Below, piece by piece: positions 13,647-51,550 of a stretch of 64,000 bases of DNA. Each line of letters begins with the position of its first letter. The stretch's first letter is position 1. The translations under genes and the position numbers were made by a program. The DNA is taken from assembly GCF_053078305.1 (NCBI RefSeq), contig NZ_CP166879.1; one strand, written 5' to 3'. Below the pieces are notes generated by a model that was not told where the DNA came from, did no database searches, and worked only from the letters and a program-made list of their open reading frames with translations.

Positions 13647-13655
13647 GGGGTGAAT

Positions 13656-16600
13656 ATGGCAGTAAAGATTTCAGGTGTACTGAAAGACGGCACAGGAAAA
13701 CCGGTACAGAACTGCACAATCCAGCTGAAAGCAAAACGTAACAGCACCACGGTGGTGGTGAACACGCTGGCCTCAGAAAATCCGGATGAAGCCGGGCGTT
13801 ACAGCATGGACGTTGAGTACGGTCAGTACAGCGTTATTCTGTTGGTGGAAGGATTCCCGCCGTCACATGCCGGGACCATCACCGTGTATGAAGATTCTCA
13901 ACCCGGTACGCTGAATGATTTTCTCGGTGCCATGACGGAGGATGATGCCCGTCCGGAGGCACTGCGCCGTTTTGAACTGATGGTGGAAGAGGTGGCGCGT
14001 AACGCGTCCGTAGTGGCACAGAACACGGCAGCCGCGAAGAAGTCAGCCGGCGATGCCAGCACATCTGCCCGTGAGGCGGCAACCCATGCGACTGATGCTG
14101 CAGATTCAGCACGTGCAGCCAGCACGTCAGCCGGACAGGCCGCTTCGTCGGCTCAGTCAGCGTCTTCCAGCGCAGGAACGGCATCAACAAAGGCCACTGA
14201 AGCCTCAAAAAGTGCTGCCGCTGCAGAGTCCTCAAAAAGCGTGGCAGCTACCAGTGCCGGTGCGGCGAAAACGTCAGAAACGAATGCCGCAGCGTCAGAA
14301 CAATCAGCCGCCACTTCTGCATCCACCGCGACCACGAAAGCGTCAGAAGCTGCCACCTCAGCCCGGGATGCGGCGGCCTCAAAAGAGGCAGCGAAATCAT
14401 CAGAAACGAACGCATCCTTGAGCGCCAGTAGCGCAGCTTCCTCGGCAACGGCGGCAGGAAATTCCGCGAAGGCGGCAAAAACGTCCGAGACGAACGCCAG
14501 GTCTTCTGAGACGGCAGCGGGACAGAGCGCCTCAGCTGCGGCAGGCTCAAAAACAGCGGCTGCGTCGTCTGCCAGTGCCGCGTCAACAAGTGCCGGGCAG
14601 GCCTCAGCCAGTGCCACCGCCGCCGGAAAATCGGCAGAAAGCGCCGCATCATCCGCTTCAACAGCCACAACGAAGGCTGGCGAAGCCACTGAGCAGGCCA
14701 CGGCAGCAGCGAGGTCAGCTTCCGCAGCGAAGACATCCGAAACGAACGCGAAAGCGTCGGAAACCCGTGCAGAATCCTCAAAAACGGCAGCGGCATCGTC
14801 CGCCAGTTCGGCGGCGTCATCGGCATCATCGGCGTCTGCTTCAAAAGATGAGGCGACCAGACAGGCGTCAGCAGCGAAGGGCAGCGCCACGACGGCATCC
14901 ACGAAGGCGACAGAGGCTGCTGGTAGTGCGAAGGCAGCAGCTCAGAGCAAAAGTACGGCGGAATCTGCAGCAACGCGCGCTGAGACAGCGGCAAAACGGG
15001 CAGAGGATATTGCATCCGCCGTGGCACTTGAGGATGCGAGCACGACGAAAAAGGGGATAGTACAGCTCAGTAGTGCGACTAACAGCACTTCCGAGTCACT
15101 GGCGGCAACACCAAAAGCCGTTAAGGCCGCGTATGACCTGGCTAACGGGAAATACACCGCACAGGATGCAACGACAGCACAGAAAGGGATAATCCAGCTA
15201 AGCAGCGCGACCAACAGCACGTCTGAAACGCTGGCGGCAACGCCAAAGGCAGTAAAAGCAGCCAATGACAATGCTGAGAAACGTCTGCAGAAAGATCAGA
15301 ACGGTGCGGATATCCCTGGCAAAGACACCTTTACGAAAAATATTGGTGCCTGCCGTGCCTTCGGTGGGTCAGTAAGCACAACAACAGGAAACTGGACGAC
15401 TGCACAGTTTATCGAGTGGCTGGATTCTCAGGGAGCATTTAACCATCCATACTGGATGTGCAAGGGTTCCTGGTCTTATGGCAATAATAAAATCATTACT
15501 GATACTGGCTGCGGTAATATTCATCTCGCCGGAGCTGTCATTGAAGTAATGGGGATAAAGTCAGCGATGACGATCCGCATTACCACTCCGACCACATCCA
15601 GCGGTGGCGGAACAACCAACGCCCAGTTTACCTATATTAATCACGGAACAGATTATTCACCTGGCTGGCGAAGGGACTATAACTCCAGAAATAAGCCAAC
15701 GGCATCAGAGATCGGGGCGCTACCGTCAGGTGGAACAGCAGTATCATCAGTTAATCTGGCTTCAAAAGGTCGGGTAGCCGCGCTGACAGACAATACGCAG
15801 GGGGCAGCAGGTCTTGAGTTATACGAGGTGTATAACAACGGATATCCAACAACGTATGGAAATATCATTCACCTGAAAGGGATGACAGCCGTTGGCGAAG
15901 GTGAGTTACTCATCGGCTGGAGTGGTACAAGCGGTGCTCATGCTCCGGCATTTATTCGTTCACGACGGGATACGACCGACGCAAACTGGTCGCCGTGGGC
16001 GCAGCTTTACACCTCGGCTCATCCTCCTGCAGAGTTTTATCCAGTCGGTGCACCAATCCCGTGGCCATCAGATACCGTTCCGTCTGGTTATGCCCTGATG
16101 CAGGGGCAGACTTTTGACAAATCTGCATACCCGAAACTTGCAGCCGCTTATCCGTCAGGCGTGATCCCTGATATGCGTGGCTGGACGATTAAGGGCAAAC
16201 CTGCCAGTGGTCGGGCCGTATTGTCTCAGGAACAGGACGGCATTAAATCGCACACCCACAGCGCCAGCGCATCCAGTACGGATTTGGGGACGAAAACCAC
16301 ATCGTCGTTTGATTACGGCACTAAATCCACGAATAACATCGGGGCGCATACGCACAGTGTGAGCGGTACAGCCGCAAGTGCCGGAAACCATACTCATAGT
16401 GTCACAGGCGCATCAGCAGTCAGCCAGTGGTCACAAAATGGGTCAGTACATAAGGTAGTGTCTGCGGCCAGTGTGAATACAAGTGCTGCAGGAGCGCACA
16501 CTCATAGTGTCAGCGGCACAGCTGCATCTGCAGGTGCTCACGCACATACTGTCGGTATTGGTGCTCATACGCACTCGGTTGCGATTGGCTCACATGGACA

Positions 16601-16682
16601 CACCATCACCGTTAACGCTGCTGGTAACGCGGAAAACACCGTCAAAAACATCGCATTTAACTATATTGTGAGGCTTGCATAA
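13656..16682 (+). CDS. stf: Side tail fiber protein Stf, apparently intact, with Ala/Ser-rich repetitive shaft and His-rich C-terminal repeats
   Basis: ~1008-aa ORF; N-terminus [49 protein letters not shown]... and C-terminus ...[31 protein letters not shown] match K-12 StfR/lambda Stf family as recalled. Confidence 0.85.
14050..15010 (+). repeat. Low-complexity Ala/Ser/Thr-rich tandem repeats inside stf coding sequence
   Basis: Repeated motifs such as [19 protein letters not shown]; the run also generates long spurious ORFs on both strands (14153..14902 -, 14248..15027 -, 14575..15060 +). Confidence 0.7.
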
Positions 16683-17266
16683 TGGCATTCAGAATGAGTG
16701 AACAACCACGGACCATAAAAATTTATAATCTGCTGTCCGGAACTAATGAATTTATTGGTGAAGGTGATGCATATATTCCGCCTCATACAGGTCTGCCAGC
16801 AAACAGTACCGATATTGCACCGCCAGATATTCCGGCTGGTTTCGTGGCTGTTTTCAACAGTGATGAGTCATCGTGGCATCTCGTTGAAGATCATCGGGGT
16901 AAAACGGTTTATGACGTGGCTTCCGGCGACGCGTTATTTATTTCTGAACTCGGCTCATTACCGGAAAATGTCACCTGGTTATCCCCGGAAGGGGAGTTTC
17001 AGAAGTGGAACGGCACAGCCTGGGTGAAGGATACGGAAGCAGAAAAACTGTTCCGGATCCGGGAGGCGGAAGAAACAAAAAACAGCCTGATGCAGGTAGC
17101 CAGTGAGCATATAGCGCCGCTTCAGGATGCTGTGGATCTGGAGATCGCAACGGAGAAAGAAACCTTGTTGCTGGAAGCCTGGAAAAAGTATCGGGTGTTG
17201 CTGAACCGTGTTGATACATCAACTGCACCTGATATTGAGTGGCCTACGAACCCTGTCAGGGAGTAA
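16682..17266 (+). CDS. tfa: Tail fiber assembly protein Tfa
   Basis: 194-aa product [54 protein letters not shown]... matches the TfaR/Tfa family; start overlaps the stf stop. Confidence 0.88.
17101..17228 (+). repeat. Direct repeat copy 1 (tfa 3' end), roughly 85% identical to 18150..18277
   Basis: Sequences beginning CAGTGAGCATATAGCGCCGCTTCAGGATGCTGTGGATCTGGAGATCGCAACGGAG and CAGTGAGTATATTGCGCCACTGCAGGATGCTGTAGATCTGGAAATCGCAACGGAG align; identity is an eyeball estimate. Confidence 0.75.
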
Positions 17267-17320: not shown

Positions 17321-17989
17321 CTATTTTTTCCCTGAAGCGGAAAACATTACTACAGTACCTTGAACCTTGGTTTTAACATTCTCGAAATGCTCTGAGAGTA
17401 TATGTGTTAAGCCTTCTTCGGAATCTTTTGTGTTTGAAAAGATGCCTTTCTGATTGTAAATGCGCATCAGTTTTTGACCGAAGCTATTGTGCACAACTCC
17501 ATCGCCAAGAATTGTGGCTCCGTATAGAGTTCCATCGTCAGTTAAGGCCTGCGCCGCATTGCGTATTACACAGCTTTTTGTAGATATATTTCCAGGCAGG
17601 CAGTGAAGAAGGTAAAACATGGAAATGGAATCAAATTGACCATGTAACGCCGCGGGATAAGGTTCAAAAACATCATGGTTAATTTTATGTTTAATTTTTG
17701 ATTCCCCAGCCCTTGTAGATGCCGCGTTCAGGCTAGCTTCGTTCAAATCCATTAAAGATATCAGACTACTCTCAGGTACGTGAGTAAGGTAAAACCCAGT
17801 TCCAACACCAATATCCAGATGGTTGTTACCTAAATGTTCCAGAAAGTGTGGAAGAAGGTGTTCCTTTGTAGGACATCCCCATGCAAGCCGATTTGATACT
17901 CCCAAAACCCACCAGTCATAAAGCTTTAGGGTAAGTGGTGTGTAAATTTTAGCCCCATCATCTGTGTTTTTTTTCATTAATTTCACCAT
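17321..17989 (-). CDS. Class I SAM-dependent methyltransferase-like protein (resembles DLP12 ybcY family), prophage cargo
   Basis: 222-aa ORF with glycine-rich motif I (LDIGVGTGFY) typical of Rossmann-fold methyltransferases; AT-rich codon usage; lies between the two tfa-derived repeats. Confidence 0.65.
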   Translation of the reverse strand: MVKLMKKNTDDGAKIYTPLTLKLYDWWVLGVSNRLAWGCPTKEHLLPHFLEHLGNNHLDIGVGTGFYLTHVPESSLISLMDLNEASLNAASTRAGESKIKHKINHDVFEPYPAALHGQFDSISMFYLLHCLPGNISTKSCVIRNAAQALTDDGTLYGATILGDGVVHNSFGQKLMRIYNQKGIFSNTKDSEEGLTHILSEHFENVKTKVQGTVVMFSASGKK

Positions 17990-18149
17990 GTTATAGTTTT
18001 ATTTGTGAATTAAATCAATTATGGCGATGAATTACAAGGGGTTAAATGCTGCCGCAGCATAGCGATATTGAAATAGCATGGTATGCTTCGATACAGCAGG
18101 AGCCGAATGGCTGGAAGACCGTCACCACACAGTTCTACATCCAGGAATT

Positions 18150-18277
18150 CAGTGAGTATATTGCGCCACTGCAGGATGCTGTAGATCTGGAAATCGCAAC
18201 GGAGGAAGAAAGATCGTTGCTGGAGGCATGGAATAAATATCGGGTATTGTTGAATCGAGTTGATACATCAGTAGCTC
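18150..18277 (+). repeat. Direct repeat copy 2 (tfa 3' end remnant)
   Basis: See copy 1 at 17101..17228. Confidence 0.75.
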
Positions 18278-18351
18278 TGGGTATGAAGCTGTTTGTAACT
18301 CATGTTACAGTAACAGCCATTACTATCTCGAAGGTGCAAAATGTATATTGA
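18150..18351 (+). pseudogene. Tail fiber assembly gene remnant (tfaX-like 3' fragment)
   Basis: Translation ...[40 protein letters not shown] duplicates the Tfa C-terminus; no homologous N-terminal part. Confidence 0.6.
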
Positions 18352-18534
18352 TTTGATATTTTATAAATTTACTTCGAATCTGGCACGTCAACTTTTGATT
18401 AAAGTAATATCAGTTTTCGGCGAAAAAAGGACCGTGTACATGAGACGATTTCATACAAGAATAACAAAAATATGAATATGCTCCCAATGCAATATATGTT
18501 TTGCATTGGGAACAAATAGCGGAATATTTTGAAA

Positions 18535-20019
18535 TTATTGTATTTCTGCTTCAGAATTTCCTGGGCAGTATATATTTTCTGGTTTTTGTGGAGTGATCAG
18601 GTGATGTACAACTGCTTTATCTACACATAAATTAACTCCGGTGAGAGCTAATGTATGCCCATCACCATTTATTGTTAGTAACGGGCTGGAAAATTTCTCT
18701 GCCATCTTACGGGCATTAATCCAGGGCGTTGTTGGGTCGTATTTGTGTGCTACAAACAGTAAACCAGAGGGCAGAACAGTATTTTTCAGGCGAGTTTTGT
18801 TCAGGTCGCTATGTATTGGCCATAATTCACAAAAATCAGGTGAATCGGAACGTCCATTGTCAAAGTTAATAGCCGGGAAGGCATTCGCAAGAGCGTCTTT
18901 TCGGGATTTTCGCTCTTCTGGTGTTAATTGCTCATCCCCCTGATCTACACAGAGGATTACCCCCGAAGCATCGCTTGACTCTTCTGAGGCTATCGGAGCA
19001 CTGAGCGCAGTTTCAATTTCATTACTGACAATCCCCTGAGAGAACTGGCGTATGGCAGTTGCAAGGGTTGGCCATGATGAACGCCATAGCAGAAGGTCTG
19101 TTGTTAATGATATGAGTTCATCTGAAGATATATTTTCTCCCTTACTGTCTAATAAAGGTTTGTGATGTAATTTTGATAATAGCTCATGGAACTGAGTTAT
19201 TGCCTTATCTCTGTCTGAAGAAAGCGGGCAACTTTTTGTACGCGCACACCAGGATGCAAAGCGATCAAACGTTTCCTGATAACTCTGTGCCTGTTTGAGT
19301 TGCCATGTGAAGTTGTCCTCCAGGTCATCGATATCGACGACTCCATCAAGAACGATAGATCTTACGTTGTAGGGAAAACGTTCTGCATATAAGGCTGCAA
19401 TTTGAGTTCCATACGAATACGCCACGGCTGTCAGTTGTTTATCCCCCAAGGCTTGCCTAATACGATCAATATCGTATACAGCCTCGTTAGAGCCGATATG
19501 GCGAATGACTTCGGCTCCGGTATTATGGATACAGGCATTAATTTTATTTAATACTTGTTGCTTTTCGGTTATGTTTTCCTGAGTCTCTGTATCTGATTGC
19601 CGGCAGTTTATTGTCGGAGTGGACTGTCCGACGCCTCGAGGATCAAATCCAATAATATCCCATGACTCACGAAGATTTGTGACTGGCCAGTCAAAGTTAA
19701 TATAAGGATTTATGCCTGGTAACCCGGGACCACCACTTATTATCAGGATACTTCCTTTATGCTTGCTTTTTGCCGGCAATTTTGTCAACGCTAGTTTGAC
19801 TTGTGATTTTTTTTCATAAGAAGCATCTCCGCCTGTGTCTGTATATTTTAATGGAACAGACAAATAACCACATAGTAAGTCAGGAGACGGTTTTTCCTCA
19901 CCAAACCAGTGGTTGAATTGACTGGCCATACAGGATTGCCACTGTATCTGCTGGGCAGATACGGTTACTGGTAGAAGTAACGTTAAAACAACTTTGAAAT
20001 GAGTAATTATTTTTCGCAT
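18535..20019 (-). CDS. Secreted alpha/beta-hydrolase fold protein, likely S33-type (tripeptidyl aminopeptidase-like) peptidase/esterase; function unknown
   Basis: 494-aa ORF with N-terminal signal peptide MRKIITHFKVVLTLLLPVTVSAQQ, GFDPRGVGQS oxyanion-region motif and SYGT nucleophile-elbow-like motif; AT-rich. Confidence 0.65.
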   Translation of the reverse strand: MRKIITHFKVVLTLLLPVTVSAQQIQWQSCMASQFNHWFGEEKPSPDLLCGYLSVPLKYTDTGGDASYEKKSQVKLALTKLPAKSKHKGSILIISGGPGLPGINPYINFDWPVTNLRESWDIIGFDPRGVGQSTPTINCRQSDTETQENITEKQQVLNKINACIHNTGAEVIRHIGSNEAVYDIDRIRQALGDKQLTAVAYSYGTQIAALYAERFPYNVRSIVLDGVVDIDDLEDNFTWQLKQAQSYQETFDRFASWCARTKSCPLSSDRDKAITQFHELLSKLHHKPLLDSKGENISSDELISLTTDLLLWRSSWPTLATAIRQFSQGIVSNEIETALSAPIASEESSDASGVILCVDQGDEQLTPEERKSRKDALANAFPAINFDNGRSDSPDFCELWPIHSDLNKTRLKNTVLPSGLLFVAHKYDPTTPWINARKMAEKFSSPLLTINGDGHTLALTGVNLCVDKAVVHHLITPQKPENIYCPGNSEAEIQ

Positions 20020-20205
20020 TGTGTCTCTGAATATCGGAATAAAGATAAGATTTGAATATATTGAGGTCTTGTGTTGCGGTAAGAGATTACACGTTATGAC
20101 ATAGGTTAAATGCTTACAAAATTAGTGGATATTGCCTACTTGTAACTGTAAACAAATTCCCCGGGGTTATACAATACCACCGGGGAGAAAATCTGGTTAA
20201 CTTCG

Positions 20206-21159
20206 TTAAAAGGTGTACTTAAGACCAGCAGTAGTGATGAAGTTATAGTTTTCTATGCCTGCACCATTTTTGCTGTAGTCTGAAGTGTTATCATTGTGAT
20301 CATAAAGTGAAGTATTACCTTTTTTATTCGTAACCCGATTCCATGCGCCTTCAACATAAACCTTTGCGTTAGGTGTTACGTAATAACCTGCATTGACTGC
20401 AACAGAATAGTAATTTTGGTCTTTGACTTTACTGCGATAAGTGATTCTTTTTCCTGGGTCATAGTGCTCATCGTTATCAGATGCTTCCACCCAGCCGCTG
20501 TATTTAAATGTGCCACCTAGCTCAAAATCTTCATAACGATAACTTCCAGTCAAGCCAATGTAGGGCATTTTAAAACGTTGTTTGTAGCCGATTGCTCTTT
20601 CTCCATTCGGGAAGGAGCCGATATCATCTCTGAATCCCTCCTCAGAACTGTAGATATAGGAACCACCTCTGGCTGTAAAGCTATAACGGCTTTCCTGATA
20701 TCCGGCCATGAGTCCCAGGCGGTAATTGGGTTCGTTGAGGAGCCAGCCTTTGATATTCAGATCAAATTCGTTGGCATAATTGAGTTGTGTATCAGGGTGC
20801 CTACTTTCATCTGTCCAGGTTCCGGGGTTACTGGAATCCATCCAGTCCTGATCGACCATATTGCCACCTCGGCTGCCGAGAGTAGTCCAGCCCGCAGCCC
20901 CAATAGATATCTGGGGCATCAAATCCCAATTAATTGCACCTTTAATAATTGCAGCGTTATTGAATTTCCAGTCGAGTTGACTGACTTTTCGGCCTCCTTC
21001 TTCAGCTAGATAAACGCGCTCTTTTGTTTTTCCGCTCAGAGTTCCAAGACTAATGTCCGCATTTATGTTGTCAGGAGTAAACGATATAGTCTCGGTAGAA
21101 GCAAAAGAGCTGATCGCAATAGGGGTTGTCAGAACTATTCCCAGAAGTTTCGCCCGCAT
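20206..21159 (-). CDS. ompT: Omptin-family outer-membrane aspartyl protease, near-identical to OmpT
   Basis: 317-aa product MRAKLLGIVLTTPIAISSFASTETISFTPDNINADISLGTLSGKTKERVYLAEEGGRKVSQLDWKFNNAAIIKG... ending ...NFITTAGLKYTF, matching E. coli OmpT as recalled. Confidence 0.9.
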   Translation of the reverse strand: MRAKLLGIVLTTPIAISSFASTETISFTPDNINADISLGTLSGKTKERVYLAEEGGRKVSQLDWKFNNAAIIKGAINWDLMPQISIGAAGWTTLGSRGGNMVDQDWMDSSNPGTWTDESRHPDTQLNYANEFDLNIKGWLLNEPNYRLGLMAGYQESRYSFTARGGSYIYSSEEGFRDDIGSFPNGERAIGYKQRFKMPYIGLTGSYRYEDFELGGTFKYSGWVEASDNDEHYDPGKRITYRSKVKDQNYYSVAVNAGYYVTPNAKVYVEGAWNRVTNKKGNTSLYDHNDNTSDYSKNGAGIENYNFITTAGLKYTF

Positions 21160-47862: not shown

Positions 47863-49083
47863 ATGAAACGTGCAGTGATTACTGGCCTGGGCATTGTTTC
47901 CAGCATCGGTAATAACCAGCAGGAAGTCCTGGCATCTCTGCGTGAAGGACGTTCAGGGATCACTTTCTCTCAGGAGCTGAAGGATTCCGGCATGCGTAGC
48001 CACGTCTGGGGCAACGTAAAACTGGATACCACTGGCCTCATTGACCGCAAAGTTGTGCGCTTTATGAGCGACGCATCCATTTATGCATTCCTTTCTATGG
48101 AGCAGGCAATCGCAGATGCGGGCCTCTCTCCGGAAGCTTACCAGAATAATCCGCGTGTTGGCCTGATTGCAGGTTCTGGCGGCGGTTCCCCGCGTTTTCA
48201 GGTGTTCGGCGCTGACGCAATGCGCGGCCCGCGCGGCCTGAAAGCGGTTGGCCCGTATGTGGTCACCAAAGCGATGGCATCCGGCGTTTCTGCCTGCCTC
48301 GCCACGCCGTTTAAAATTCATGGCGTTAACTACTCCATCAGCTCCGCGTGTGCGACTTCCGCACACTGTATCGGTAACGCAGTAGAGCAGATCCAACTGG
48401 GCAAACAGGACATCGTGTTTGCTGGCGGCGGCGAAGAGCTGTGCTGGGAAATGGCTTGCGAATTCGACGCAATGGGTGCGCTGTCTACTAAATACAACGA
48501 CACCCCGGAAAAAGCCTCCCGTACTTACGATGCTCACCGTGACGGTTTCGTTATCGCTGGCGGCGGCGGTATGGTGGTGGTTGAAGAGCTGGAACACGCG
48601 CTGGCGCGTGGTGCTCACATCTATGCTGAAATCGTTGGCTACGGCGCAACGTCTGATGGCGCAGACATGGTTGCTCCGTCTGGCGAAGGCGCAGTACGTT
48701 GTATGCAGATGGCGATGCATGGCGTTGATACCCCAATCGATTACCTGAACTCCCACGGTACTTCGACTCCGGTTGGCGACGTGAAAGAGCTGGCAGCTAT
48801 CCGTGAAGTGTTCGGCGATAAGAGCCCGGCGATTTCTGCAACCAAAGCCATGACCGGTCACTCTCTGGGCGCTGCTGGCGTACAGGAAGCTATCTACTCT
48901 CTGCTGATGCTGGAACACGGCTTTATCGCCCCGAGCATCAACATTGAAGAGCTGGACGAGCAGGCTGCGGGTCTGAACATCGTGACCGAAACGACCGATC
49001 GCGAACTGACCACTGTTATGTCTAACAGCTTCGGCTTCGGCGGCACCAACGCCACGCTGGTAATGCGCAAGCTGAAAGATTAA
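47863..49083 (+). CDS. fabB: 3-oxoacyl-ACP synthase I FabB
   Basis: 406-aa product [38 protein letters not shown]... ending ...[14 protein letters not shown]. Confidence 0.95.
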
Positions 49084-49089
49084 TTCGCA

Positions 49090-49200
49090 GTAGGCCGGAG
49101 TAGTCGGAGTAGGTCGGATAAGACGCGCCAGCGTCGCATCCGACGTTACGCGCCAGCGTCGCATCCGACGTTACGCGCCAATGCGGCATCCGGCACTAAT
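49090..49200. repeat. REP/BIME cluster downstream of fabB
   Basis: Tandem GCGCCAGCGTCGCATCCGACGTTAC units and GTAGGTCGGATAAGACGCG motifs. Confidence 0.8.
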
Positions 49201-49388
49201 GCCAAAGGGAACCCGATGGTTCCCTTTTTCACATCATTGACAATCGCCGCCTGTTCCAGGCAAACTTCCCGCTTTGTCGATTTCCTTCTGAAAAGACGTA
49301 CGCGTTAATTCCTGCCAACGCACCGTAACCCTGAAACCAGAGAGATGAGACGGGGATACTCCTCGCCTTGCGCTGCATTCTGGAGTAA

Positions 49389-51550
<2,162 letters not shown>

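What the first reader, a model, noticed from the sequence alone, without database searches (positions are those of the whole stretch)
18535..20019. Uncharacterised secreted 494-aa alpha/beta-hydrolase (S33-like) encoded directly beside the omptin gene
The ORF has a clear Sec signal peptide and alpha/beta-hydrolase hallmarks (GFDPRGVGQS region, SYGT nucleophile-elbow-like motif) reminiscent of tripeptidyl-aminopeptidase/TAP-type S33 enzymes, which are unusual in E. coli. I do not recognise it as a named E. coli protein. Its position co-directional with and 186 bp downstream of the omptin gene, inside prophage cargo, suggests a possible two-step envelope proteolysis module (the outer-membrane endoprotease cutting cationic peptides and a periplasmic exopeptidase processing the fragments) or an esterase acting on host or phage-receptor structures. 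This is inference from gene context only.
Basis: inference. Interest (0 to 1): 0.55.

Follow-up and report, generated by a model that had tools for sequence, protein, structure and literature searches.

The report
Exported Hip1-like hydrolase partnered with omptin
The gene encodes an exported serine hydrolase related to the tuberculosis protease Hip1, and it travels with outer-membrane omptin protease genes as a conserved two-gene unit on E. coli phages and plasmids, including the classic F plasmid, although its function has not been tested.

Summary
Window 18535-20019 (minus strand) encodes a 494-aa protein with a signal peptide, 186 bp downstream of ompT, in the low-GC cargo block of a lambdoid prophage integrated at tRNA-Arg(CCU).

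It is a TAP/Hip1-type alpha/beta hydrolase (MEROPS S33):
- Pfam Abhydrolase_1 plus the TAP-like C-terminal domain.
- Best solved relative is M. tuberculosis Hip1 (E about 1e-51; model TM 0.77-0.80).
- Ser202, Asp428, His455, the oxyanion-hole residues and 10 cysteines are invariant or nearly so.
- Hip1's Lys-binding Glu113 is Leu here, so substrate preference probably differs.

The gene is not rare. It is in 1253 of 5426 complete E. coli genomes, and about 99% of full-length copies lie next to ompT.

Diverged copies (95, 82, 79 and 76% identity) are also directly downstream of co-diverged omptins, in unrelated plasmid contexts. The F plasmid pair ompP-hydrolase is one of these. dN/dS is 0.12-0.18 at dS up to about 1.

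The K-12 and UPEC ompT loci are derivatives that lost the gene. Relatives at about 53% identity stand alone, without an omptin.

Functional coupling with the omptin (periplasmic processing of peptides) is plausible but untested. I rate it a new member of a known kind, of moderate interest.

The parts
18535..20019 (-). CDS of the 494-aa exported TAP/Hip1-type alpha/beta (S33) serine hydrolase. The mature protein is about 472 aa, 52.5 kDa, pI 5.4.
   Evidence: ORF listed. Pfam Abhydrolase_1 5e-33 plus Abhydrolase_4 (TAP-like) 3.4e-15. Hip1 E 1.6e-51. AF2 model pLDDT 88.8, with Foldseek TM 0.77-0.80 to Hip1. Mature-protein properties.
19954..20019 (-). Codons 1-22, a predicted Sec signal peptide (MRKIITHFKVVLTLLLPVTVSA, cleavage before QQ).
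   Evidence: Read directly from the sequence. Ala22 is nearly invariant in A3. This segment has low pLDDT. No signal-peptide predictor was run.
19414..19416 (-). Codon of Ser202, the nucleophile in A-Y-S-Y-G-T (equivalent to Hip1 Ser228).
   Evidence: Invariant in 40 of 40 sequences. Aligned to the Hip1 nucleophile (Hip1 numbering from PMC4022732).
18736..18738 (-). Codon of Asp428, the catalytic acid (equivalent to Hip1 Asp463). Thr431 three residues on corresponds to Hip1 Thr466.
   Evidence: Invariant. Alignment.
18655..18657 (-). Codon of His455, the catalytic base (equivalent to Hip1 His490).
   Evidence: Invariant. Alignment.
18479..18514 (-). Terminator-like hairpin (14 pairs) starting 21 bp after the hydrolase stop codon. 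Probable 3' end of the transcription unit.
20158..20186 (-). Conserved G+C-rich hairpin just after the omptin stop codon, followed by a weak T-run. Probably a partial terminator or mRNA stabiliser between the two genes.
   Evidence: Fold. Conserved in all five diverged omptin-hydrolase pairs. It did not meet the scan's terminator criteria.
20206..21159 (-). ompT (317 aa), the upstream partner gene of the cassette.
   Evidence: NCBIfam NF008222, 708 bits against a cut-off of 537. Annotated ompT in an identical genome.
18073..20049 (.). Segment missing from the UPEC-type ompT locus. It covers the tail-fibre-assembly remnant, the whole hydrolase gene and its ribosome-binding region. The K-12 type has 18276-20155 replaced by an appY segment.
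   Evidence: blastn of L019, L020 and L018 against the window. Annotations.

Best explanation
The gene encodes a Sec-exported, disulfide-rich serine hydrolase of the TAP/Hip1 branch of the alpha/beta-hydrolase (MEROPS S33) family. It most likely sits in the periplasm.

Catalysis would use Ser202 as nucleophile, His455 as base and Asp428 as acid. The oxyanion hole would be formed by the backbone of Gly97 (GGPG loop) and Tyr203. A helical lid domain covers the substrate pockets, as in Hip1.

The gene is the downstream half of an old, mobile two-gene cassette, omptin then hydrolase. The cassette occurs as cargo in lambdoid phages (as here), in the F plasmid (ompP-hydrolase), and in ColV-type and fimbrial plasmids. 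The well-studied K-12 and UPEC ompT loci are derivatives that have lost the hydrolase.

The most likely role is hydrolysis of peptides, or possibly esters, in the cell envelope. It may act on material that the surface omptin has already cut, with the products passing on to peptide uptake.

Shown: the fold, the intact active site, purifying selection, and the conserved adjacency and co-divergence with omptins. Inferred: periplasmic location, peptide substrates, read-through co-transcription, and any functional dependence on the omptin.
For: Family and active site:
- Pfam Abhydrolase_1 plus the TAP-like domain.
- Hip1 (Rv2224c) at E 1.6e-51 over residues 21-480.
- AF2 model with pLDDT 88.8 and pTM 0.89.
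- Foldseek top PDB hits are all Hip1, TM 0.77-0.80, followed by TnmK1/K2. AFDB neighbours are uncharacterised 'tripeptidyl aminopeptidase/TAP domain' proteins and Hip1.
- S202, D428, H455, G97, Y203 and T431 are invariant in 40 sequences. Ten cysteines are invariant or nearly so. This matches Hip1's S228/D463/H490 triad and its 5 predicted disulfides (PMC4022732; PMC13041806).

Cassette:
- 1229 genomes carry a full-length copy, and 1220 have it contiguous with ompT.
- Copies at 95, 82, 79 and 76% identity each lie directly downstream of an omptin of 90, 79, 72 and 70% identity, in unrelated contexts.
- The F plasmid NC_002483.1 carries ompP followed by the hydrolase, and 156 plasmids carry that whole pair.
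- Sequenced temperate phages carry the pair.
- Hydrolase dN/dS is 0.12-0.18 at dS 0.45-1.06. The hydrolase and omptin divergences give the same groupings.
- The UPEC locus is a clean deletion of the hydrolase and the K-12 locus a replacement by appY.

Peptide link and expression:
- The Serratia homologue lies next to an SBP_bac_5 peptide-binding protein. The Pseudomonas homologue lies next to a peptide-type ABC transporter.
- ECs1662 and ompT mRNAs both fall at least 4-fold on entry to stationary phase in Sakai.
Against: - No activity, location or phenotype has been measured for this protein or any close relative.
- The Hip1 residue that binds the P2 lysine (Glu113) is Leu100 here. That position is Leu, Met or Gln in the enterobacterial clade. 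There is therefore no sign of a preference for the basic ends that omptins produce.
- A conserved hairpin sits between the two genes. No sigma-70-like promoter was found for the hydrolase. Co-transcription is unproven.
- About 60% of ompT-positive genomes lack the hydrolase.
- Relatives at about 53% identity in Salmonella, Budvicia, Serratia and unnamed plasmids have no omptin within 5-6 kb. The family therefore works without an omptin.
- Adjacency could persist simply because the 2.6-kb pair moves as one block.
- Sakai cluster 1 is a very large expression cluster, so shared membership is weak evidence of co-regulation.
Confidence: 0.6

Rival explanations
1. Independent cargo. The hydrolase is a stand-alone exported peptidase or esterase, for example for nutrient scavenging or colonisation. 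It has no functional tie to the omptin. The pair stays together only because it is a small block that mobile elements move as a unit.
For: - Relatives at about 53% identity are solitary cargo on a Tn7-like element (Salmonella), on IS-flanked plasmids (Serratia) and on plasmids beside fimbrial operons.
- A conserved hairpin lies between omptin and hydrolase.
- ompT functions without the hydrolase in K-12 and UPEC.
- On pCys-11 the hydrolase is intact while the adjacent omptin is a pseudogene.
Against: - The adjacency, order and orientation survive synonymous divergence of about 1 in five otherwise unrelated contexts. The cassette boundaries lie tightly around the pair.
- Within E. coli the hydrolase is almost never found without an omptin: 1220 of 1229 copies are paired. 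The omptin, in contrast, is often found alone. This asymmetry is what an accessory factor would show.
Confidence: 0.3
2. Envelope or host lipid esterase. Hip1 was first named carboxylesterase A. On this reading the enzyme mainly hydrolyses esters, such as envelope lipids, LPS-associated acyl groups or host lipids, rather than peptides.
For: - Hip1 hydrolyses p-nitrophenyl butyrate as well as peptides (PMC4022732).
- PDB entries are named 'Carboxylesterase A'.
- A phage annotation calls this protein a 'putative lactone hydrolase'.
- The Budvicia homologue lies about 2 kb downstream of an EptA-type lipid A phosphoethanolamine transferase, with two genes in between.
- On ColV plasmids the equivalent slot after the omptin holds hlyF (an SDR) and mig-14, which are envelope-related genes.
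Against: - The family's characterised members (Streptomyces TAP, SlpD/E, Hip1) are peptidases.
- The Serratia and Pseudomonas homologues sit by peptide-transport genes.
- No lipid-related neighbour recurs.
- The 'lactone hydrolase' name is an automatic annotation, not an experimental result.
Confidence: 0.12
3. Phage-benefit function. As a prophage cargo gene it protects the lysogen against other phages, by superinfection exclusion or defence. It could do this by degrading incoming phage proteins in the periplasm or by modifying a receptor, possibly together with OmpT.
For: - It lies in the cargo slot between the tail-fibre genes and int of inducible lambdoid phages.
- It matches PADLOC model PDLC01094, 'TAP-like protein', at E 4.5e-57.
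- Its PHROG family 20134 has unknown function.
Against: - The same cassette is at least as common on conjugative plasmids, and it persists in decayed prophages.
- The PADLOC hit is to one protein model of a candidate system whose other components were not looked for.
- No defence-type partner gene is present.
- The omptin partner is an established host-defence-peptide protease.
Confidence: 0.06

Closest known systems
Mycobacterium tuberculosis Hip1 (Rv2224c, CaeA; PDB 5UGQ, 7SFM, 9MD7), a cell-envelope serine protease/esterase of MEROPS family S33
   Same: - Full-length homology: E 1.6e-51, about 27-30% identity over residues 21-480.
- Same alpha/beta core plus lid fold, TM 0.77-0.80.
- Same triad order (Ser202/Asp428/His455 corresponding to S228/D463/H490).
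- Same oxyanion hole (GGPG Gly and the Tyr after the Ser), and the same Thr three residues after the Asp.
- Exported, with about 10 conserved cysteines against 5 predicted disulfides in Hip1.
   Different: - The organism is Gram-negative and the gene is on a mobile element.
- Glu113 and Glu117, which shape Hip1's near-exclusive P2-Lys pocket, are Leu100 and Asn104 here.
- No GroEL2-like substrate is known.
- It is paired with an omptin, which mycobacteria lack.
Streptomyces tripeptidyl aminopeptidase TAP and SlpD/SlpE (Pfam Abhydrolase_4, 'TAP-like protein'; MEROPS S33)
   Same: Same Pfam architecture, Abhydrolase_1 plus the TAP-like C-terminal domain. All are secreted or envelope-associated. 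AFDB neighbours carry the names 'tripeptidyl aminopeptidase' and 'tripeptidyl-peptidase B, S33'.
   Different: These are more distant than Hip1 (plasmid-borne Streptomyces relatives are at 23-26% identity). No evidence here shows that the E. coli enzyme removes N-terminal tripeptides.
F-plasmid gene downstream of ompP (WP_072145210.1, 'alpha/beta hydrolase') and its relatives on F-type, ColV-type and fimbrial plasmids
   Same: It is 76-95% identical, has the same length, signal peptide and triad, and occupies the same position directly downstream of an omptin.
   Different: - The partner omptin differs (OmpP-type, 70-79% identical to OmpT).
- The intergenic region is shorter (about 90-130 bp), keeping only the hairpin and the ribosome-binding site.
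- The context is plasmid cargo next to a recombinase and RepFIB rather than a phage cargo region.
- It is equally uncharacterised.
The arlC(ompTp)-hlyF-mig-14 island (PI-6) of ColV/AIEC plasmids
   Same: An omptin followed by co-directional accessory genes. It sits in the very same plasmid slot (recombinase WP_001066941.1 plus RepFIB) that holds ompP-hydrolase in F (the slot is described in preprint 10.1101/2021.07.20.453171).
   Different: The accessory genes are an SDR oxidoreductase and Mig-14, which are unrelated to alpha/beta hydrolases. The resemblance is in layout only.

Membership tests
TAP/Hip1-type alpha/beta hydrolases (Pfam Abhydrolase_1 + Abhydrolase_4; MEROPS S33) | Alpha/beta-hydrolase core domain plus the TAP-like C-terminal domain | tested here: met
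   PF00561 5e-33 (residues 91-460) and PF08386 3.4e-15 (residues 386-485).
TAP/Hip1-type alpha/beta hydrolases (Pfam Abhydrolase_1 + Abhydrolase_4; MEROPS S33) | Ser-Asp-His triad in that order, with Ser in a small-x-S-x-G nucleophile elbow | tested here: met
   A-Y-S202-Y-G, D428 and H455 are invariant in 40 of 40 sequences. They align to Hip1 S228/D463/H490 (Hip1 numbering).
TAP/Hip1-type alpha/beta hydrolases (Pfam Abhydrolase_1 + Abhydrolase_4; MEROPS S33) | Oxyanion hole from the GGPG-loop Gly and the residue after the nucleophile (Hip1 Gly110 and Tyr229) | tested here: met
   G96-G97-P98-G99 and Y203 are invariant. Hip1 description.
TAP/Hip1-type alpha/beta hydrolases (Pfam Abhydrolase_1 + Abhydrolase_4; MEROPS S33) | Overall fold with a helical lid, as in solved Hip1 | tested here: met
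   AF2 model pLDDT 88.8. Foldseek to 8E5W, 7SFM and 5UGQ gives E about 1e-34 to 1e-32 and TM 0.74-0.80.
TAP/Hip1-type alpha/beta hydrolases (Pfam Abhydrolase_1 + Abhydrolase_4; MEROPS S33) | Exported, disulfide-bonded protein | tested here: inconclusive
   The signal peptide was judged by inspection. Ten conserved cysteines all lie in the mature part. No predictor was run, and the disulfide pairings and the location were not tested.
TAP/Hip1-type alpha/beta hydrolases (Pfam Abhydrolase_1 + Abhydrolase_4; MEROPS S33) | Peptidase (and/or esterase) activity dependent on the active-site Ser | not testable with these tools
   Requires an enzyme assay.
Hip1 orthologue in the narrow sense (same specificity) | S2 pocket with Glu113 making the salt bridge to the P2 Lys | tested here: not met
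   Hip1 Glu113 aligns to Leu100, and this position is Leu, Met, Gln or Ile in the enterobacterial clade. Glu117 aligns to Asn104.
Prolyl aminopeptidase (NCBIfam TIGR01249, equivalog) | Score above the curated cut-off of 259.75 bits | tested here: not met
   35.8 bits over residues 167-263 only. Database names such as 'proline iminopeptidase' for fragments of this protein are therefore not justified.
Omptin-hydrolase two-gene cassette (proposed here; not a described system) | Hydrolase directly downstream of, and co-directional with, an omptin, across diverged copies | tested here: met
   Five lineages with hydrolase/omptin identities of 100/100, 95/90, 82/79, 79/72 and 76/70%. 1220 of 1229 genomes have the pair contiguous.
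Omptin-hydrolase two-gene cassette (proposed here; not a described system) | Co-transcription or co-regulation of the two genes | tested here: inconclusive
   There is a conserved hairpin between the genes and no promoter-like site for the hydrolase. Both mRNAs fall on entry to stationary phase in Sakai, but they belong to a very large cluster.
Omptin-hydrolase two-gene cassette (proposed here; not a described system) | Linkage extends to more distant homologues or other genera | tested here: not met
   No omptin within 5-6 kb of the homologues at about 45-54% identity, nor of the actinobacterial ones.
Anti-phage defence candidate (PADLOC PDLC01094, 'TAP-like protein') | Match to the model, plus the partner genes of the candidate system | tested here: inconclusive
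   Single-protein match at E 4.5e-57. The composition of that candidate system is not given by the tool, and no defence-type neighbour is present.

The most novel reading that the evidence does not exclude
Omptins of E. coli mobile elements (OmpT on lambdoid phages, OmpP on the F plasmid) were originally one half of a two-enzyme envelope system. The second half is a periplasmic Hip1-like serine protease. Together they would degrade or process host-defence peptides or envelope proteins, or modulate host responses as Hip1 does in tuberculosis. The K-12 and UPEC ompT loci, on which nearly all omptin biology rests, would then be decayed versions lacking the partner.
Probability: 0.3. Interest if true: 0.7.

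Novelty: new member of a known kind. Interest (0 to 1): 0.5.

Why it matters
OmpT and OmpP are textbook outer-membrane proteases and recognised antimicrobial-peptide resistance factors. They have been studied almost entirely in K-12 and UPEC backgrounds. This analysis shows that those backgrounds have lost a conserved downstream partner gene.

A Hip1-type exported serine hydrolase accompanies omptins in about 40% of ompT-positive E. coli, including O157, O111 and O145 strains. It is also present on the F plasmid and in inducible phages.

If the two enzymes cooperate, differences in omptin-dependent peptide resistance between pathotypes may partly reflect this gene. The Hip1 inhibitor chemistry developed for tuberculosis would then offer ready probes.

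If they do not cooperate, the protein is still a widespread, selected and uncharacterised exported hydrolase of pathogenic E. coli that is easy to test.

Tried and rejected
- Prolyl or proline iminopeptidase identity. NCBIfam TIGR01249 scored 35.8 bits against a cut-off of 259.75. Rejected.
- Pseudogene or spurious ORF. Rejected by dN/dS of 0.12-0.18, by intact copies in more than 1200 genomes, and by mRNA detection in Sakai.
- Omptin linkage outside the E. coli clade. Neighbourhoods of homologues at 45-54% identity held no omptin. These were Salmonella, Budvicia, Serratia, Pseudomonas, Chromobacterium and two unnamed contigs. tblastn with OmpT over all 104 loci then held also found none.
It shows where the family is richest but gives no species-level picture for Proteobacteria.
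- A separate promoter for the hydrolase. The consensus scan found none in the 186-bp spacer, and manual inspection found only poor matches. Left open.
- ArlB as a possible hydrolase partner of ArlC. The PI-6 island carries an SDR (hlyF) and mig-14 instead. Rejected.
- Literature searches by locus tag, protein accession and phage name, and for 'omptin' with 'hydrolase'. They found only a microarray table entry and a passing mention. The 'Tap-like' preprint concerns unrelated T7SS proteins.
- Desloges et al. report 'ymcE 186 bp downstream of ompT' in isolate cystitis 6. This is probably the same gene under a wrong name, but I did not verify it on that genome.
Full report
**Observation**

It runs from 18535 to 20019 on the minus strand, starts with ATG and encodes 494 aa. 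ompT (317 aa) lies at 20206-21159 on the same strand. It scores 708 bits against an NCBIfam cut-off of 537. The hydrolase therefore starts 186 bp downstream of ompT and is co-directional with it.

The quoted motifs are present. GFDPRGVGQS is at residues 124-133 and SYGT at 202-205. The N-terminus, MRKIITHFKVVLTLLLPVTVSA|QQ, has the basic, hydrophobic and V-x-A layout of a signal peptidase I substrate, and it has no lipobox. No signal-peptide predictor was available, so export rests on inspection. Three further observations fit export. Ala22 is nearly invariant in relatives. Residues 1-20 have low confidence in the structure model. All ten cysteines lie in the mature part.

**Surroundings**

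An identical stretch in E. coli 2014C-3307 is annotated in this order:
- tail genes, gpJ, lom, stf and tfa
- a class I SAM-dependent methyltransferase on the opposite strand
- a tail-fibre-assembly remnant
- the alpha/beta hydrolase
- ompT
- intS
- tRNA-Arg
- yfdC and mlaA

In the window, tRNA-Arg(CCU) is at 22851-22925. The block from about 17.3 to 21.5 kb has 38-45% GC, against 52% for the window. The gene is therefore cargo of a lambdoid prophage at argW, in the slot between the tail fibres and int. Sequenced temperate phages (2G7b, ev243, Turner and the PhiR series) carry the same int-ompT-hydrolase-tfa'-methyltransferase arrangement at 99% identity or more.

**What the protein is**

Sequence and fold evidence agree:
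- Pfam gives Abhydrolase_1 (5e-33) plus Abhydrolase_4, the TAP-like C-terminal domain (3.4e-15).
- Against solved structures, the best matches are all M. tuberculosis Hip1/CaeA (Rv2224c), at E 1.6e-51 over residues 21-480. TnmK1/K2 follow, and prolyl aminopeptidases only marginally.
- An AlphaFold2 model built on a 40-sequence alignment is confident, with pLDDT 88.8 and pTM 0.89.
- Foldseek places the model on Hip1 structures with TM 0.77-0.80.
- In AFDB the neighbours are uncharacterised enterobacterial 'tripeptidyl aminopeptidase/TAP domain' proteins, many actinobacterial ones, and Hip1 itself.

The active site is intact. In the 40-sequence alignment Ser202, Asp428 and His455 are invariant. 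So are Gly97 and Tyr203 (the oxyanion hole) and Thr431. By the alignment these correspond to Hip1 Ser228, Asp463, His490, Gly110, Tyr229 and Thr466. The Hip1 residues are as described in PMC4022732 and PMC13041806. Ten cysteines are invariant or nearly so, which parallels Hip1's five predicted disulfides.

One difference matters for function. Hip1's Glu113 makes the salt bridge responsible for its near-exclusive preference for Lys at P2. Here that position is Leu100, and Glu117 is Asn104. The catalytic machinery is conserved, but the substrate preference need not be.

The NCBIfam prolyl aminopeptidase model scores far below its cut-off (35.8 against 259.75 bits). The 'proline iminopeptidase' names attached to database fragments of this protein are not warranted.

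**How common it is, and the link with omptins**

The gene is not rare:
- It is in 1253 of 5426 complete E. coli genomes, 1229 of them with a full-length copy. It is nearly always annotated just 'alpha/beta hydrolase'.
- A query spanning the hydrolase, the spacer and ompT is covered at 80% or more in 1220 genomes. About 99% of copies therefore sit next to ompT.
- ompT itself is in 3078 genomes, so about 40% of ompT genes have the partner and about 60% do not.

The decisive evidence comes from diverged copies. In each case below, the hydrolase lies directly downstream of an omptin on the same strand:

| Context | Hydrolase identity | Omptin identity |
|---|---|---|
| ColV-type plasmid pCys-11 | 95% | 90% (omptin is a pseudogene here) |
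| Plasmid-like contigs with Afa-type fimbrial genes | 82% | 79% |
| Contigs with Pap-like fimbriae and an autotransporter | 79% | 72% |
| F-type plasmids (ompP, then 92-104 bp, then the hydrolase) | 76% | 70% |

The classic F plasmid NC_002483.1 carries this last pair (ompP at 32322-33269, hydrolase at 33374-34861). 156 plasmids in PLSDB carry the whole pair.

Hydrolase dN/dS is 0.12-0.18 at dS 0.45-1.06, and omptin dN/dS is 0.07-0.14. Both genes give the same groupings of lineages. The pair is therefore old, selected and co-inherited, and it has moved between phage and plasmid contexts as a unit.

**The familiar ompT loci are derivatives**

Relative to the window (with annotations):
- The UPEC-type locus is a clean deletion of 18073-20049. 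This removes the tfa remnant, the hydrolase and its ribosome-binding site.
- The K-12 DLP12 locus has 18276-20155 replaced by the appY segment.
- Sakai Sp8 keeps the pair (ECs_1662 and ECs_1663) with an ISEc8 inserted beside it.

Desloges et al. (PMC6854850) describe three ompT contexts. In one isolate they report a gene '186 bp downstream of ompT', which they call ymcE. The spacing matches this hydrolase, so that is probably this gene misnamed. I did not check that genome.

On ColV plasmids the same cargo slot next to the recombinase and RepFIB holds a different set of genes: an omptin (arlC/ompTp), hlyF and mig-14. A preprint on PL fimbriae describes this hot spot and names OmpP, but not the hydrolase.

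**Limits of the linkage**

Relatives at 45-54% identity have no omptin within 5-6 kb:
- Salmonella, on a Tn7-like element and on a plasmid with toxin-antitoxin genes
- Budvicia
- a Serratia plasmid and the Serratia chromosome
- Pseudomonas
- Chromobacterium
- an unnamed contig with fimbrial genes

The genome-wide scan was saturated by Actinomycetota, where the family is most abundant. The family evidently functions without omptins, and the pairing is specific to the E. coli mobile-element clade.

Two of these contexts hint at peptides. The Serratia marcescens gene is followed by an SBP_bac_5 peptide-binding protein. The Pseudomonas gene lies beside a peptide-type ABC transporter.

**Transcription**

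A G+C-rich hairpin immediately after the omptin stop codon (window 20158-20186) is conserved in all five lineages, and a conserved ribosome-binding site precedes the hydrolase ATG. In the ompP versions little else lies between the genes.

The consensus scan found no promoter-like site in the spacer. It found a strong terminator-like hairpin just after the hydrolase stop codon, at 18514-18479. Read-through co-transcription is therefore plausible but unproven.

In Sakai grown in minimal medium, ECs1662 (log2 -2.53) and ompT (log2 -2.72) both drop at least 4-fold on entry to stationary phase and fall in the same cluster. That cluster is very large. The result does show that the gene is transcribed.

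**Interpretation**

I consider the following established:
- The protein is an exported Hip1/TAP-type S33 serine hydrolase with a complete active site.
- It is under purifying selection.
- It forms a conserved mobile cassette with omptins.

What it does remains inferred. The most likely role is hydrolysis of peptides in the periplasm, possibly those produced or admitted after omptin action at the surface. This fits the family's known activities, the peptide-transport neighbours elsewhere, and the asymmetry of the linkage: the hydrolase is almost never without an omptin in E. coli, while the omptin is often alone.

The rivals are:
- independent cargo with no functional tie to the omptin
- an esterase acting on envelope or host lipids
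- a phage-benefit or defence role

The last of these was prompted by a PADLOC match to a 'TAP-like protein' model (E 4.5e-57), whose system context I could not examine.

**Novelty**

The protein family is known and the gene is already annotated generically, so as a protein it is a new member of a known kind. I found no paper in the searchable library that characterises it or notes the conserved omptin partnership. The partnership, its presence on the F plasmid, and the finding that the K-12 and UPEC ompT loci are decayed versions are useful, directly testable observations of moderate interest.

Noticed in passing
window 17321-17989 (-): A class I SAM-dependent methyltransferase (222 aa) sits in the same low-GC cargo block. 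It is the intact counterpart of the frameshifted methyltransferase pseudogene in the K-12 DLP12 locus. Its PHROG family 2132 has unknown function. It has only a marginal PADLOC hit to mad2 (E 6.8e-4). It is kept even in UPEC loci that lost the hydrolase.
   Followed up: partly
window 18046-18351 (+); repeats 17090-17246 and 18139-18270: A tail-fibre-assembly remnant ORF (101 aa) lies between the methyltransferase and the hydrolase. It duplicates the C-terminal part of the intact tfa gene at 84-88% identity. This looks like a scar of an earlier tail-fibre module exchange that may mark how the cargo block was acquired.
   Followed up: partly
L021 (pCys-11, 46488-51378) compared with L016 and L105 (F-type plasmids): The same plasmid slot, next to recombinase WP_001066941.1 and RepFIB, holds either ompP plus the hydrolase or the omptin arlC/ompTp plus hlyF and mig-14. 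Omptins on plasmids thus come with alternative downstream accessory genes.
   Followed up: partly
L002 (pCys-11, 84354-86973): On this plasmid the hydrolase is intact (95% identical), but the adjacent omptin has an internal stop. The strain also carries a chromosomal ompT and a plasmid arlC.
   Followed up: no
window 18535-20019 (protein level): The protein matches PADLOC model PDLC01094 (named 'C3a206', 'TAP-like protein') at E 4.5e-57. The tool does not say which candidate defence system this model belongs to.
   Followed up: no
L012 (Budvicia diplopodorum, 1341-6455): The 53%-identical homologue lies directly downstream of a Fic-domain protein and close to an EptA-type phosphoethanolamine transferase, which is a lipid A modification and polymyxin-resistance gene. 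This is a single case.
   Followed up: no
window 13650-16682 (+): The side tail fibre gene has a long Ala/Ser/Thr-rich, repetitive middle region. GC rises to 62% there, with strong AT skew, and the region generates many spurious overlapping ORFs on both strands.
   Followed up: no
L018 (Sakai Sp8, locus 2294-4735): In O157:H7 Sakai an ISEc8 element is inserted just downstream of the hydrolase terminator, at the position equivalent to window 18269-18277. The pair itself is left intact.
   Followed up: partly
window 24800-26400: A sharp drop to about 35% GC occurs over the yfdF region, outside the prophage and just beyond mlaA.
   Followed up: no
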